From positions 2,545-66,544 of the forward strand of contig NW_015175470.1 in assembly GCF_001447785.1 (NCBI RefSeq): a DNA stretch of 64,000 bases. Reading direction: 5' to 3'. Shown here piece after piece: positions 59,001 through 64,000 of this stretch (position 1 is the first letter of the stretch; each line of letters begins with the position of its first letter). The position numbers were made by a program. The stretch comes from Gekko japonicus (Eukaryota).

Positions 59001-62000
59001 AACTGTGACATTGTTATTTAAGACAGAAAAAATGAGACGACCTTTCTAAAGTCCTAACGTGAATGATGACGGGTGATTTACAATTGTTTGAAATAATAAC
59101 AAAGCCTTCGGGGGGGTAGGGTGGGATATAAATCCAAAAATAAATAAATAAATAAAAAGTAATCCAAGTGCATACTAAAATATTTGCCAGCAGTTTCAAT
59201 CTCACAATCATTCACTCCATGGACTGGGGGGAAAGTTAATAAATGTTAAGAGCACTTGACTTTTGAGACATTCTTTCAAAATAGGGTTGCCATTCTCCAG
59301 GCAGTGGCTGGAGATATCCAGCTATTGCAGCTGATCTCCAGGCAACAGAACTCTGTTCACCTGGAGCAAATGGCCACTTTGGAAGTTGAACTCTATGGCA
59401 TTATGCCCCAAACTCTGCCCTTCTGAGGCTCCACCCCCAAAATCTCCAGATATTTCCCAACCTGGAGCTGGCAATCCTATTTCAAAACCATTATAGAGCA
59501 GAGTGTTTTCAACATACCAGCTGTTTGTGCAATGGGGCAGTCAAAATACTGGACATTCCAGTTAAAGTTGCACAGAGTCTTTTTGCTGGAGTGTGTATGT
59601 GTCTGTGAGTGTGTGAAGTGTCGTCAAGTCACAGCTGACTTATGGTGACATCAGCAAGGGGCTTTCAAGGCACGTGAGGAGCAGAGGTGGTTTGCCATTG
59701 CCTTCCTCTGCAGAGTCTTCCTTGGAGATCTCCTTTCTAAGTACTGACCTTTCTTATTTCCCAAGATCTGACAAGATCAGGCTGTACCATTCAGCCTTTT
59801 CTCCTTGCGGGCCTAAATTTAACCTCTCTCCGGATATATACATTTGACTAGGAATAAGGCCTGTTGTGGAAATAAATACAACGAGATCTAGGAAGAGGCT
59901 CTGGGAGAGTGCTCCGGTTTTGGGGCAAACAGTGTCAATTTGCTGTGGTGACCTCAGCAAGGTATAATGACAGAGTCCACTGTCATTATCAGTTCAGAGG
60001 AACTGATCTCTGCTACCTGAAGAGCAGTTGTAATTTTAAGTGGTCTCCAGCCCTCACCTGGAGATTGGCAACAATTGTTACCCAGGGTGAAATGGCTGGT
60101 TTGGAGGGTGGAGTCTATGGCATTCTGTCTGAGGTCCAACCCCTCCTCAAACCCCACCCTCTCCAGGCTCCACCCCTCAAATCCCCAGGAATTTGCCAGC
60201 CTGGAGTTGGCAACCCTATCTCCTTTCCAGCTAACCATCAACCTGCCATTATCTGCCCCTTTGACTTCAGCTGACGTCTGCCCTACCTTCTGCAGAGCAG
60301 TTGTAATTCTGAGTGGTCTCCAGCCCTCACCTGGAGATTGGCAACAATGGTTCCCCATGAGGGACTGGTTGGTTTGGAGGGTGGAGTCTATGGCATTGTA
60401 CCTGTCTGAGGTCCCACCCCTCCTCAAACCTCACCCTCTTCAGGCTCCATCCCTCAAATCTCCAGGAATTTCCCACCTGGAGCTGGCAACCCTATCAGGA
60501 CTGGCCCCAATGTGTTTTCTCCCAAAGGCCAAAATAGGTGACAGGACGAAGCTTAGCTGCCTACCAACAGGCACTGAGGGGAAAGTAGGATTGCCAGCTC
60601 TAAGGAGGGAAATACCTGGAGATTTGGAGGGTGGATCCTGTGGAGGGCAGCATTGGGCGGGGGGGCGGAAGGACTCAGCAGGTATTATGTCATAGGGTCT
60701 ACCCTCCAAAGCAGCCATTTTCTCCGGGGGAACTGATCTCTGTCATCTGGAGATCAATTGTAGCAGTGGGAGATCTCCAGGTCCCACCTGGAGATTGGCA
60801 ACTGTAGGGGAAAGTCAGCTGCACAGCAGGGGGTTGAAGAGAATGGTTTGATGGCTGCTGGGCCAAGATTGGCAACAATAGTTCCCCAGGAGCAAATGGC
60901 TGGTTTGGAGGGTGGAGTCTATGGCACTGTACCTGTCTGAGGTCCCCTCACCCTCTCCGGGCTCCACCCCCCAAATCTCCATGAATTTCCATACATTAAG
61001 CTAGCGACTTTATCTCCTCCCCTCTCAGCAGCCTCTTTCTAGGCAAAATTCTGTCTTTCTCATTAGTGGGGAGCAAAACAGCTTACTTCATTCTCTTCGA
61101 CTTTGCGATCTTTGCAGCAACGCTGTAAAGTAGGTTAGGCAGAAAGTCTGTGGCTGGTCTGAAATCACCCAGGCAGCTTCCATAGGGATGCTCCTGCTGA
61201 ACAGGAGCAAGCAGCCAGGGCTAGTGATGCCATGCCAGTCTGGAGGCATGAAGTCACTCTGAGAGTGCTTGCAGGCTTAGGGTTGCCATTGCCAACAAAG
61301 TCAAATTGATGCAAAGGAGGATGGAAAAGTCTCCATATCTCTATTTTGCCTTAAATTGGTTTTGATGCCAGCAGAGTGAGAAAATGCCAAAGGCTCTGGG
61401 TGGGTGCCCCATGGTAAATGCACCAAACAATTCCTAAAGATTTTCCAAAACACTACTCTGTCGATAAATCGTTTTCTACACTCACAGCATCCCCTGCCAG
61501 AATGCAACACATCCAGTGTTCCCTCTAAGCTGAGTTAGTGTGAGCTAGCTCACAGTTTTTTAGCCTCCGGCTCACTGATTTTTGTCTTAGCTCAGAAAGG
61601 ATGGCTCGAGAGCAAACTAATTCACGCAGCAGCCAAATCACTTACTCACAACTTTAATGCTAGGAGCTCACCAAGTAGAATTTTTGTTCACAGGACTCCA
61701 CAGCTTAGAGGGAGCCTTGAACACATCCCCAGCACCAAAGCTTTAAGAGCTCTCCAGCTGTCACCTGGAGATTGGCAAAAGCTTGTTTGGAGGGTGGGGT
61801 CTATGGCATTGTATCTGTCTGAGGTCCCCCTCTTCCTCCTCCTCAGCCCCCACCCTCAGCAGGTTTCTCCCAGATGTACGGTTTCTATCGACTCTGCTGT
61901 CTTTTAAATGTACAAATGTCCCATTGTTTTGTAGTTACTTTTCTTGTGACAGGTCCTGGAAAGGTTTATATGCTTTTAAGATAATGTTTCAATGTAAAAA

Positions 62001-64000
62001 AGAAGAAACTTATAAATTGAACATTCTACATGCATATGTGGTATAATTGCATGAAAAACCACTTGTCTAGATGCTCCCCAATGCACATAAACAGAAAACA
62101 GATGATATTGCGATGACTTTTTGGTAGCTTTTGCAATAATTACAGTGAGATTTTCTGTCTTCAGTTTGCATTTATGTCAACAAGCAAGCTAATGTGGGGC
62201 CATATCTTGAAAGAAAGAAAGTACAGCAACTTCCAGACCACTTTGGGCCTGAACGGCCTTCCATGGTGCTACAGCAGGCAGTTCAAGCATGCATTGACTG
62301 TGCACACCAGCAAAAGACAGTCTTCTTGCTTGTCAAGCAAGGCTATGGAGGCGAAATGGTGTCAGGTAAGATAGTGGAAAAACATTTAGTGATTAAAATA
62401 CAGTCTGCTCTTACAACTGTTAACACAGTCCTTCATATCTTAAGCTAACCTTTCAGCCAGTTGTCACTGATAAAAAAATCAGTCATGTGTGCTGCAGGAT
62501 TGTAGAGGCCGCTCTTGGGATGTTGTAATATAATCCCTTCTGTATTTTTCTCTCCTTTGTAAACAAGTGAACGGATTATGTTCTTCAGATGTGAGCAACT
62601 GACAGTTCCAACTGTCTTGCGGGCGGGGAGGGGGAGATTGAGGTGTGGAATGGAGTAAAGTCCAATCAGCTTCCATATGCAAATGACCTTGAAACGCTGG
62701 CCCAATCTGAGAAGAGTGGCCTAGGCTGCAGTTGGTGGGAGAGAACTCAAGCTGGCGGCAGCCGCTGACTTGCCTCCCTCTCCACATGGACCAGGAACAC
62801 TCCCACCTGAAGACGCAGGCACAAGCAGCTCGGCCACTGCTCTGTCCTGGGGTTTCCTGCGCAATTCCATCCCCTTACCTGGGTCCCCTTGTGTCTACTG
62901 GCGACTCTTTGGGGAAGGGGGGAGGCGCTCAGTTTCCTCGCACTGTTTTCCCAAGCTGAAATGGCTGTCAGAAGTCCCTATTTGCCCCATTGTGAGACTT
63001 CACATGCTGTAACCTGCTTTTGAAAGGGGAGAAAAGATATAGTTAACTGTCAGAATAATTGAGCAATGAAACCAATTCTCTGGGGCATCAGTGGAGTCTC
63101 TTCCACTGACGTTTTCTTGTGAAAAAATGGTTAAATAAGTAGAAAGACTTGGGTCCCAGTCACACTGGCCAGAGAACGCAGGGGGGTGGCGTGGCTTTTT
63201 GCTCTGCCGCACTTGTGACCCGGCCGAACGCGATCAGACGCAACGGCAGGGAATCGGGGGTAGCATTTTGTCGGCGCATGTTTCCGGTGCACTTCATGCG
63301 GAGCTGGAGCGATCAGATGGAGGACGTCCATCTGTGGGCCGTCGCAAGCGGATAATACTGGTGTTTCTGCAGTAGCTTTGAACTACGGATCTTCAGCGGG
63401 ATGTGATGGCTTGCCAACGGGTGCACGACGCTTGCCAGATGTGCTGGTGTGATCACGCCCGTTAAATCCACCCAGCATCTGTGAGTATCCCGCGGGAACT
63501 TCTGTGTATGATCGGAGCCTTGTTTTGTTATACTGGCAGGGGTCATTTCCTGCAGGAGCACACAGGAGCAGAGCTCCAGCAGTAAAGAGCCCAGGGTGCA
63601 GGCACATGCAACAAGCCCCATCCCCTGCTCCCAGGAGCCCTCAGTCAGAGCAAGAAGTAGCCTGGTAAGATGCGGAGGTCCCCCCCAACCCCCGGTCCAT
63701 AACAGTCCAGTTGCACCTTTAAGTCCTAGTTTTATTCAAGGAAGAGCTCTTCCTCCTCTGTGAGGGCAGATCTGCACGTCCCCCCCCCCAATAGCCAGCA
63801 CTCCAAAACAGTTCAGTGGAGCCCGAGCAGTGGGTGTTGCCTTCTGACACACTTCCGGTGATGTCAGGGTGTGTGGCATATGCAAATAAGTTATGCTAAT
63901 GTGCTCCTGCACCTCTTTTTCTACTAAATGACCCCTGTATACTGGGTTCTGCCCTAATGCAGGGTGGTTAACTTTGATGTCATTTCTGAGAGAATCCTTA

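What the first reader, a model, noticed from the sequence alone, without database searches (positions are those of the whole stretch)
59848..62400. Lone SCML4 SLED exon next to an open-ended Helitron at the edge of an OR cluster: possible exon capture
Seen: an intact 201-nt symmetric SCML4 exon with good splice sites. By eye I could not find the preceding exon (…PEPD.SSIPQDAAT…) in the 62 kb upstream, nor the next SLED exon in the 1.6 kb downstream. A minus-strand Helitron 3' end sits at 59848 and Helitron-type internal sequence runs to ~61870, ~290 bp from the exon. Its 5' terminus is not in the window. Known: Helitrons capture host gene fragments (maize, vespertilionid bats), and mammalian SCML4 lies between SOBP and SEC63, not in an OR cluster. 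Inference: this is a Helitron-captured or duplicated polycomb gene fragment, or a rearrangement breakpoint, or ORs nested in a very large SCML4 intron.
Basis: partly seen in the sequence, partly recalled or inferred. Interest (0 to 1): 0.7.

Follow-up and report, generated by a model that had tools for sequence, protein, structure and literature searches.

The report
Ordinary SCML4 exon beside old Helitron
A perfectly preserved exon of the polycomb gene SCML4 lies 2.3 kb from the end of an old, decayed rolling-circle transposon in a gecko draft scaffold; the transposon looks like a bystander rather than a carrier, but why smell-receptor genes lie upstream remains open.

Summary
Window 62165-62365 (+) is an intact 201-nt, phase 1/1 exon with AG/GT borders. 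It encodes the first part of the SLED domain and differs at 1 of 66 residues from gecko, varanid and lacertid SCML4. No other SCML4 exon is in the window. The repeat ending at 59848 (-) belongs to a genuine canonical Helitron family. A paralogous empty site in the window shows a 943-bp copy (18493-19435) inserted exactly between A and T, without target duplication, with 5'-TC and CTAG-3' ends.

Exon capture is not supported.
- The exon lies in sequence that is unique within the window, 293 bp beyond the last Helitron-like base.
- No Helitron 5' end lies to its right.
- The Helitron copy at 59848 carries about 9% private substitutions, while the exon has one amino-acid change. Neutral simulation gave that outcome in 0 of 20,000 runs at 9.4% divergence.

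The exon therefore looks selectively constrained, most simply as the native SCML4 exon.

One oddity remains. In 8 of 8 squamates where both could be seen, the nearest OR14 genes and SCML4 sit on different chromosomes. The adjacency here is a scaffold misjoin, an OR block moved into an SCML4 intron, or a young duplicate. The window cannot decide between these.

The parts
62165..62365 (+). SCML4 exon encoding the first 66 complete codons of the SLED domain. 201 nt, phase 1/1, AG at 62163-62164, GT at 62366-62367.
   Evidence: SLED E=3.1e-23; 98% to squamate SCML4; PDB 2MEM SCML2 SLED, E=2.6e-20.
61872..62164 (.). AT-rich sequence with no second copy in the window, lying between the last repeat fragment and the exon. 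Read as intron.
   Evidence: zero self-matches from 61872 to 64000..
59848..60496 (-). 3' part of a non-autonomous Helitron: a terminal tail ending CTAG at 59848 with flanking A at 59847 on the + strand, plus two ~273-bp internal tandem units.
   Evidence: (85% over 662 columns to 46813-46159), (20 private substitutions in 212 columns).
59825..59847 (+). 23-mer resembling a Helitron 5' end, lying inverted against the CTAG end.
   Evidence: 2 mismatches in 14. (0 of 500 shuffles reach the score, with either 5'-end reference).
60586..60819 (+). Dispersed ~230-bp repeat related to the Helitron's internal unit but in the opposite orientation. Probably a separate insertion.
   Evidence: matches 45525-45754, 18847-19029, 56103-55904, 59482-59286.
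60866..61022 (-). Fragment of the internal unit, in the same orientation as units 1 and 2.
   Evidence: 78-81% to 60062-60194, 60335-60473 and 46602-46432.
61053..61288 (.). Fragments of another interspersed repeat family.
   Evidence: 61053-61186 ~ 45924-45789 at 76%; 61177-61288 ~ 55798-55909 at 75%.
61510..61720 (.). MITE-like element with 13-bp perfect terminal inverted repeats at 61520-61532 and 61701-61713.
   Evidence: (88% to 53284-53494 and 33380-33587).
61742..61871 (-). Last fragment of the internal unit. It ends in mid-unit.
   Evidence: 61742-61871 ~ 60035-60175; 61781-61871 ~ 46287-46202.
18493..19435 (-). Complete 943-bp non-autonomous Helitron of the same family. On the minus strand it reads 5'-TCTCTCCTTATATA...CTCCTAG-3'. 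No long ORF.
   Evidence: (empty site).
4306..4307 (+). Paralogous empty site (A|T) for the 18493-19435 insertion.
   Evidence: block 4306-6317 ~ 19435-21451, 89%. (flanks match on both sides, no target duplication).
46093..46812 (+). Helitron 3' part (two units plus tail), ending TTAG at 46812.
   Evidence: (9-bp subterminal stem, z=-3.5).
14988..15201 (+). 5'-truncated Helitron tail ending CTAG at 15201.
47948..49159 (+). The OR14-type olfactory receptor gene nearest the exon. The likely CDS is 48221-49159. It is contiguous with the exon, with no N in between.

Best explanation
The 201-nt segment is a functional, selectively constrained exon of SCML4, most simply the native first SLED-domain exon of the single-copy gene. 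The element ending at 59848 is an old, non-autonomous canonical Helitron. It inserted by rolling-circle transposition between an A and a T in what is now intron or intergenic DNA. Other repeats later invaded it, and it decayed. It is a bystander and did not carry the exon.

Shown: the exon's borders, its SLED/SCML4 identity, its near-perfect conservation, the Helitron's termini and its A|T insertion without target duplication, the age of the 59848 copy, and the absence of other SCML4 exons and of a second exon copy in the window.

Inferred: that the exon is the native copy. The missing upstream exon would then lie either beyond the window, with an OR14 block moved into a very long intron, or on another piece of the genome that this draft scaffold has wrongly joined within the repeat-dense stretch between 49.2 and 62.1 kb. 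I lean to the misjoin by roughly 2:1 over a real OR-block insertion, on base rates only.
For: Exon conservation. 65 of 66 codons are identical to Paroedura, Heteronotia, Varanus and Podarcis SCML4. The single change, S to L, is also present in the king cobra protein P0010. Splice sites are intact.

Age of the adjacent Helitron. In a three-copy alignment of its tail, the copy at 59848 has 20 private substitutions in 212 columns, against 8 and 2 for the other two copies. CpG is depleted there: observed/expected is 0-0.39 across 59801-61000.

Neutral simulation of the 66 codons, 20,000 runs per rate. The fraction with at most 1 amino-acid change and no stop was:
- 0.54 at 1% divergence
- 0.19 at 2%
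- 0.0038 at 5%
- 0.0002 at 7%
- 0 at 9.4%

Position of the exon. It lies in sequence with no second copy in the window, and repeats stop at 61871.

No 5' end beyond the exon. No match to the family's 5' end with 2 or fewer mismatches lies to the right of 59848.

No coding capacity. Pfam on 145 ORFs of 50 aa or more from 49160-64000 found only SLED above cut-off and no Rep or helicase.

Helitron identity.

Assembly quality. The source is a 156,569-bp scaffold with N runs. One N run is flanked by an exact 150-bp duplicate, which shows imperfect gap closing.
Against: The preceding, highly conserved exon is absent from 62 kb upstream.

The five same-strand OR14 genes upstream are not SCML4's neighbours in other squamates. 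In Paroedura the ORs (87% and 85% identical) are on a 31,129,466-bp contig, and SCML4 is on a 205,925,973-bp contig. In Heteronotia the ORs (86, 85 and 80% identical) are on 68,086,271 bp, and SCML4 is on 285,831,653 bp.

Sequence from the last OR to the exon is free of N, so any misjoin would be hidden inside contiguous sequence.

The exon's source protein was not seen. No listed representative is 100% identical or sits on a 156,569-bp contig. It is therefore unknown whether the genome's annotated SCML4 uses this exon.

The age argument has a weakness. It assumes that the private substitutions of the 59848 copy arose after insertion and are not subfamily differences. Only three copies were available to judge this.

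A very young duplicate (2% divergence or less) would look the same as the native exon.
Confidence: 0.6

Rival explanations
1. A young duplicated fragment of SCML4 (the exon plus flanking intron) was copied from its home chromosome into or beside the OR14 cluster by segmental duplication, not by a Helitron. It is too recent to have decayed.
For: The adjacency is non-syntenic in 8 of 8 squamates compared. OR clusters are duplication-prone, and the window itself holds a 15-kb-period tandem duplication at 89-92% identity. Only one exon is present in 64 kb. Simulation allows 1-2% neutral divergence (0.54 and 0.19).
Against: It needs a recent interchromosomal event. There is no second copy, no duplication boundary and no decay to point to. 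The sole amino-acid change is one that an annotated snake SCML4 also carries. Copy number could not be measured.
Confidence: 0.2
2. Helitron capture. The exon is a passenger inside a large Helitron. The carrier is either the minus-strand copy ending at 59848, or a plus-strand copy whose 5'-like 23-mer lies at 59825-59847.
For: The family is a real Helitron with variable internal content. The 943-bp copy shares only about 54 bp of tail with the others. The 59848 copy has no 5' end in the window. A 5'-end-like 23-mer points towards the exon (0 of 500 shuffles).
Against: The exon has 1 of 66 residues changed, while the carrier's tail has 9.4% private substitutions. There are 293 bp of unrelated sequence between the last Helitron-like base and the exon. 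No + strand CTAG-type 3' end of this family lies right of 59860. The 23-mer is preceded by C, not the A seen at both verified 5' ends. Other copies carry no part of 61872-64000. No paper holds both 'SCML4' and 'Helitron' (0 papers).
Confidence: 0.05
3. A real chromosomal rearrangement has its breakpoint between the OR14 cluster and the SLED exon. It has split SCML4 in this lineage.
For: The adjacency is non-syntenic. Sequence from OR to exon is N-free.
Against: A split gene would leave this exon unconstrained, yet it is intact. SCML4 is conserved as a whole gene across the squamates listed.
Confidence: 0.05

Closest known systems
SCML4 (Scm polycomb group protein like 4), first SLED-domain exon
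   Same: Pfam SLED match. 98% identity to squamate SCML4 over the whole exon. The exon's 3' border coincides with the junction used by isoforms that skip the next exon (P0008 and P0027 read ...GGEMVS|ET...). The closest solved structure is the SCML2 SLED domain, 2MEM.
   Different: No RBR, second SLED or SAM exon is in the window. The upstream neighbours are OR14 genes, not the SOBP/SEC63 neighbourhood. That neighbourhood is recalled from mammals and was not tested here.
Canonical (Helitron1-type) non-autonomous Helitrons, such as the HeliBat non-autonomous families (recalled)
   Same: 5'-TC and CTAG-3' termini, insertion between A and T with no target-site duplication, a subterminal 3' palindrome about 12 nt from the end in the best-preserved copy, conserved ends with variable interior, and no coding capacity.
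   Different: The hairpin is AT-rich and weak. The stem is 9 bp in 1 of 4 copies and 4-5 bp in two, and none is in the minimum-energy fold of the fourth. The interior holds ~273-bp tandem units related to a separately dispersed ~230-bp repeat. Two copies have an inverted 5'-end-like 23-mer abutting the CTAG (p=0 and p about 0.04).
Helitron gene-fragment capture (maize, vespertilionid bats; recalled from the field, and PMC5381603 passages mention bat Helitron abundance)
   Same: A host exon with intron flanks lies near a Helitron end.
   Different: The exon is not shown to lie between two Helitron ends, is not multi-copy in the window, and is not decayed in step with the element.

Membership tests
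SCML4 gene exon | Encodes a SLED domain segment | tested here: met
   PF12140, E=3.1e-23, 82.8 bits (cut-off 25); 2MEM, E=2.6e-20.
SCML4 gene exon | Closest to SCML4 rather than SCML2 or SCMH1 | tested here: met
   among the 120 listed hits, every one carrying a gene name is SCML4. Top identities are 95-98% in sauropsids.
SCML4 gene exon | Canonical splice borders and the phase expected from orthologues | tested here: met
   AG|...|GT, 201 nt, phase 1/1; exon-skipping isoforms P0008 and P0027 join right after ...EMVS. The 5' border is inferred only from the alignment start.
SCML4 gene exon | Other SCML4 exons (RBR, second SLED, SAM) in cis | tested here: not met
   no other hit with E<0.34 in 64 kb. 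Only 1.6 kb lies downstream, so the downstream part is uninformative.
SCML4 gene exon | Conserved chromosomal neighbourhood | tested here: not met
   OR14 homologues and SCML4 are on contigs of different length in 8 of 8 squamates. SOBP and SEC63 could not be looked for because no eukaryotic genome collection was available.
Canonical Helitron | 5'-TC and CTRR-3' termini | tested here: met
   A|TCTCTCCTTATATA at 19435(-) and 16007(-). CTAG or TTAG followed by T at 59848, 46812, 15201 and 18493.
Canonical Helitron | Insertion between A and T without target-site duplication | tested here: met
   the paralogous empty site at 4306|4307 (TTA|TGT), compared with the filled site flanking 18493-19435.
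Canonical Helitron | Subterminal 3' hairpin | tested here: inconclusive
   9-bp stem (z=-3.5) in the 46812 copy, 5 bp in the 59848 copy (z=-1.5), 4 bp in the 15201 copy, none in the minimum-energy fold of the 18493 copy.
Canonical Helitron | Rep/helicase ORF (autonomous element) | tested here: not met
   no Helitron_like_N or PIF1-type helicase among 22 + 145 ORFs; only short ORFs in the complete copy. These are non-autonomous copies.
Helitron-captured gene fragment | Fragment lies between the 5' and 3' ends of one element | tested here: not met
   no 5' end right of the exon within the window; no + strand 3' end right of 59860. The sequence beyond 64000 was not available.
Helitron-captured gene fragment | Fragment travels with the element (several copies share it) | tested here: not met
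   no other copy in the window carries any of 61872-64000. Genome-wide copy number is not testable with these tools.
Helitron-captured gene fragment | Fragment decays neutrally with its carrier | tested here: not met
   (9.4% private divergence of the carrier tail) against (1 of 66 residues changed; 0 of 20,000 neutral runs at 9.4%).

The most novel reading that the evidence does not exclude
The exon is a second, recently acquired copy of part of SCML4. It would have been carried from another chromosome into a gecko OR14 cluster inside a large plus-strand Helitron. That Helitron's 5' end would be the 23-mer at 59825-59847, with the 59848 element nested in it and its 3' end lying beyond the window. 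This would be a fresh case of polycomb exon capture by a Helitron in a squamate.
Probability: 0.05. Interest if true: 0.55.

Novelty: already known. Interest (0 to 1): 0.22.

Why it matters
The result is mainly a caution. A lone conserved exon next to a transposon end in a draft scaffold is not evidence of capture, and comparing the exon's decay with the element's decay separates a passenger from a bystander.

Two by-products may be useful.

First, the window contains a clean internal proof, a filled site against a paralogous empty site, that a canonical non-autonomous Helitron family has been active in a gecko OR cluster.

Second, the OR14-SCML4 adjacency contradicts the chromosome assignment seen in 8 of 8 other squamates. 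It flags either a scaffold misjoin worth correcting, or a real relocation of an OR block or an SCML4 fragment worth a look in a better assembly.

Tried and rejected
Read-through past the donor. Pfam scored the open frame 62149-62445 higher than the exon alone (91.1 against 82.8 bits), and tblastn extended alignments to 62442 or 62619. This hinted that a decayed next exon might be fused there. Alignment of the 27 read-through residues to the next-exon peptide gave p=0.088 over 5000 shuffles. I rejected it as chance.

Finding the source genome's own SCML4 protein. No representative is 100% identical or on a 156,569-bp contig. Two look-ups of the 66-member squamate SCML4 cluster listed the same 15 members. 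This remains unresolved.

A Helentron/Helitron2-type terminal-inverted-repeat reading of the inverted 5'-like 23-mer next to CTAG. I rejected it for the family because the empty site shows that the element ends at CTAG, and two of four copies lack the 23-mer (p=0.53-0.99).

A non-LTR retrotransposon 3'-tail reading of the shared end. I rejected it because of the A|T empty site without target duplication and the defined 5'-TC end.

Other negative searches:
- tRNA scan of the window: 0 genes.
- Rfam on 49000-64000 at E<=0.1: 0 matches.
- A by-eye guess that 14603-15115 is LINE ORF2: no Pfam match.
- Literature: 0 papers hold both 'SCML4' and 'Helitron'. Of the 14 papers holding 'Helitron', 'gecko' and 'transposable elements' (12 listed), I read only passages of PMC5381603. 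They say gecko repeats were poorly classified and give nothing on this family.

Copy number, the rest of the scaffold, SOBP/SEC63 synteny and long-read support all stayed unchecked. The closed collections (metagenome contigs, viral contigs) and the bacterial genome-contig collection were not used.
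Full report
What the window is. The window is lizard DNA, not human. The exon's best protein matches are squamate SCML4. Two of its olfactory receptors match gecko receptors best: Gekko japonicus at 88%, Paroedura picta at 87% and 85%, Heteronotia binoei at 86%, and Eublepharis at 84%. The window's own OR proteins are in the protein collection at 100% identity. 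They sit on a contig of 156,569 bp and are held by NCBI, UniRef and nr, with names hidden. The source is therefore an annotated draft scaffold of a gecko. The window has three N runs: 13650-14600, 36939-37002 and 44721-45015. I left them alone.

The exon. Reading one search gives AG at 62163-62164, the exon at 62165-62365 (201 nt) and GT at 62366-62367. The acceptor has an 11-of-12 pyrimidine tract. The donor is CAG|gtaaga. The translation matches Pfam SLED at E=3.1e-23 and the solved SCML2 SLED domain 2MEM at E=2.6e-20. Against the large protein collection, 949 proteins had E<=0.001 among 950 candidates, and 120 were listed. Every listed hit with a gene name is SCML4. The best hits (Varanus, Heteronotia, Paroedura, Podarcis lilfordi) are 98% identical, which is one difference in 66 codons. 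That difference, S to L in ...KTVF(S/L)LVKQ..., is also present in the king cobra protein P0010. Because only one exon was found, it was searched on its own.

Is it alone? tblastn with ten sauropsid SCML4 proteins at permissive settings hit only this locus. All 10 queries gave E<=3e-39 there, and every other HSP had E>=0.34. The very conserved preceding exon and the next SLED exon are therefore not in the sequenced part of the window. A self-comparison of the window found no second copy of anything from 61872 to 64000. An apparent extension of similarity past the donor site is chance (p=0.088).

The Helitron. Four places in the window share a sharply bounded end...GCCTTATTC(C/T)TAG followed by T, with unrelated sequence beyond. 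These ends are at 59848(-), 46812(+), 15201(+) and 18493(-). Two places share a start, A|TCTCTCCTTATATATAATT..., at 19435(-) and 16007(-).

The window also supplies a proof of the element's nature. An OR-bearing block is tandemly duplicated: 2622-3944 matches 17059-18409 at 92%, and 4306-6317 matches 19435-21451 at 89%. Copy 1 reads ...ATAATTA|TGTGCATTT... at 4306|4307. Copy 2 has the same flanks with 18493-19435 inserted exactly between that A and T, and no target duplication. On the minus strand the insert runs 5'-TC...CTAG-3'. Those are the defining marks of a canonical Helitron.

The copies are non-autonomous. No Rep or helicase domain appeared among 22 long ORFs of the whole window or among 145 ORFs of 50 aa or more from 49160-64000. 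The complete 943-bp copy has only short ORFs. The subterminal hairpin is weak. It is a 9-bp stem in the 46812 copy (z=-3.5), a 5-bp stem at 59848 and a 4-bp stem at 15201, and none appears in the minimum-energy fold at 18493.

Anatomy of 59848-61871. Only 59848-60496 is colinear with another copy (46813-46159, 85% over 662 columns). That stretch is a tail of about 170 bp plus two ~273-bp tandem units (60017-60220 matches 60290-60496 at 89%). Further right the order is:
- 60586-60819: a related ~230-bp dispersed repeat in the opposite orientation.
- 60866-61022: a unit fragment.
- 61053-61288: fragments of another family.
- 61510-61720: a MITE with 13-bp perfect inverted ends and two 88% copies elsewhere.
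- 61742-61871: a last unit fragment that stops in mid-unit.

The stretch is nonetheless a patchwork and has no 5' terminus. Right of 59848, the family's 5' motif has only one match. It has 3 mismatches and lies at 63132-63145. Across the whole window there were 14 such matches against 6.5 expected by chance.

An unexpected detail concerns the CTAG at 59848. It is abutted by a 23-mer at 59825-59847 that is an inverted 5'-end-like sequence (0 of 500 shuffles reach its score). The 15201 copy shows a weaker version (p about 0.04), and the other two copies show none. The empty site shows that this 23-mer is not part of the element proper. It may be the stump of another Helitron that the 59848 copy landed in.

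Carrier or bystander? If the exon had travelled inside this Helitron copy, it would have decayed with it. In a three-copy alignment of the tail, the 59848 copy has 20 private substitutions in 212 columns (9.4%), against 8 and 2 for the others. Its CpG is depleted. I mutated the 66 codons at random, 20,000 runs per rate, and counted outcomes with at most one amino-acid change and no stop. The fractions were 0.54 at 1% divergence, 0.19 at 2%, 0.0038 at 5%, 0.0002 at 7% and 0 at 9.4%. The exon is therefore either under purifying selection or much younger than the element beside it. Neither option fits a passenger of that copy.

There is a caveat. With three copies I cannot prove that all 20 private changes arose after insertion. 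The other points against capture are:
- 293 bp of unrelated, AT-rich sequence lie between 61871 and the exon.
- No other copy carries any of that sequence.
- No + strand 3' end of the family lies right of 59860.
- The 23-mer that could mark a + strand element is preceded by C, not the A seen at both verified 5' ends.

The neighbourhood problem. Five intact OR14-type genes lie upstream on the same strand: 4912-5955, 20058-21092, 29961-30983, 39196-40257 and 47948-49159. Contig length served as a handle on which chromosome each gene occupies in other species. The table gives contig lengths in bp.

| Species | OR14 homologues (identity to the window's ORs) | SCML4 |
|---|---|---|
| Paroedura | 31,129,466 (87% and 85%; XP_077171318, XP_077171649) | 205,925,973 (XP_0771588xx) |
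| Heteronotia | 68,086,271 (86, 85, 80%) | 285,831,653 |
| Sphaerodactylus | 40,154,974 | 196,596,289 |
| Hemicordylus | 171,665,751 | 459,129,262 |
| Tiliqua | 144,324,286 | 314,321,002 |
| Lacerta agilis | 51,720,411 | 118,060,892 |
| Elgaria | 48,844,430 | 149,102,164 |
| Pogona | 122,171,294 | 358,276,425 |

The two genes are on different contigs in 8 of 8 species. Outside the two gekkonids the ORs are only 64-75% identical, so those are family-level comparisons rather than strict orthologues. One Sphaerodactylus OR hit sits on a third contig.

The OR-SCML4 adjacency in this window is therefore not ancestral. It could be:
- a misjoin in a draft scaffold. One N run here is flanked by an exact 150-bp duplicate, a sign of imperfect gap closing. 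However, the stretch from the last OR to the exon has no N.
- an OR block duplicated into a long SCML4 intron.
- a young duplicate of an SCML4 fragment placed in the OR cluster.
- a true breakpoint.

The first two keep the exon native and explain its conservation without further assumptions. The third needs a copy no more than about 2% diverged. The fourth predicts decay that is not seen.

I could not find the source genome's own SCML4 protein. No listed representative is 100% identical or on a 156,569-bp contig, and the 66-member squamate cluster showed only 15 members in each of two look-ups. No eukaryotic genome collection was available, so copy number and the rest of the scaffold stayed unchecked.

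Verdict. The capture reading is not supported. My confidences are:
- 0.6: the exon is the constrained, native SCML4 exon and the Helitron is an old bystander.
- 0.2: a young non-Helitron duplicate.
- 0.05: Helitron capture.
- 0.05: a gene-splitting rearrangement.

Both the exon and the element are of known kinds. The only open point of interest is the non-syntenic OR14-SCML4 join, which a look at the full scaffold, read depth and long reads would settle.

Literature. No paper in the library holds both 'SCML4' and 'Helitron'. Of the 14 papers holding 'Helitron', 'gecko' and 'transposable elements' (12 listed), I read only passages of PMC5381603. They state that about half of the repeats in early gecko, glass lizard and bearded dragon assemblies were unclassified. 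The SOBP-SCML4-SEC63 order in mammals and the capture habits of maize and bat Helitrons are recalled, not tested here. Supplementary files were not consulted, and none bears on these claims.

Noticed in passing
window 44571-44720 and 45016-45165: The 150 bases before the N run 44721-45015 are repeated exactly (100%) right after it. The other two N runs show nothing similar. This looks like a gap-closing artefact of the assembly.
   Followed up: partly
window 2622-6317 and 17059-21451: A tandem segmental duplication with a period of about 15 kb and 89-92% nucleotide identity carries two OR genes (4936-5955 and 20073-21092) that are 94% identical in protein (314 of 335). The Helitron at 18493-19435 is present in only one copy, so it entered after the duplication.
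   Followed up: yes
window 63201-63400 (patch about 63160-63520): A CpG-rich patch 0.8-1.2 kb downstream of the exon. It has 19 CpG in 200 bp, observed/expected 1.13 against 0.23 for the window. No Pfam or Rfam match. It could be a small intronic CpG island or a young insertion.
   Followed up: partly
window 59825-59847 and 15202-15228: At two of the four Helitron 3' ends, the CTAG is followed directly by an inverted 5'-end-like stretch of about 23 nt (0 of 500 shuffles at 59825; p about 0.04 at 15202). Either the family tends to land in the first 23 nt of other copies, or a composite subfamily has propagated.
   Followed up: partly
window 15968-16007 (-): A second exact Helitron 5' end (A|TCTCTCCTTATATATAATT...). 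About 45 nt are shared with the 19435 copy. No matching 3' end could be found to its left.
   Followed up: no
window 61510-61720, 53284-53494, 33380-33587: Three ~210-bp copies (88% identical) of a MITE-like element with 13-bp perfect terminal inverted repeats (TCCCTCTAAGCTG). One copy lies 450 bp upstream of the exon.
   Followed up: partly
window 7140-8240 (-): An open frame of 366 codons with a reverse-transcriptase domain (RVT_1, E=2.6e-17). It is a LINE-type fragment lying between two OR genes.
   Followed up: no
window 45525-45754, 18845-19114, 53854-54036, 55889-56106, 59286-59483, 40772-40955, 15476-15592: A dispersed ~200-280-bp repeat is related to the Helitron's internal tandem unit and occurs on its own in both orientations. 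Whether the Helitron captured it, or it derives from the Helitron, is unclear.
   Followed up: partly
(Gekko japonicus scaffold of 239,247 bp): Two different ORs of the window (39292-40257 and 48221-49159) both have their best named matches (84-88%) on one and the same 239,247-bp Gekko japonicus scaffold. The whole OR block therefore has a colinear counterpart there, either orthologous or paralogous.
   Followed up: no
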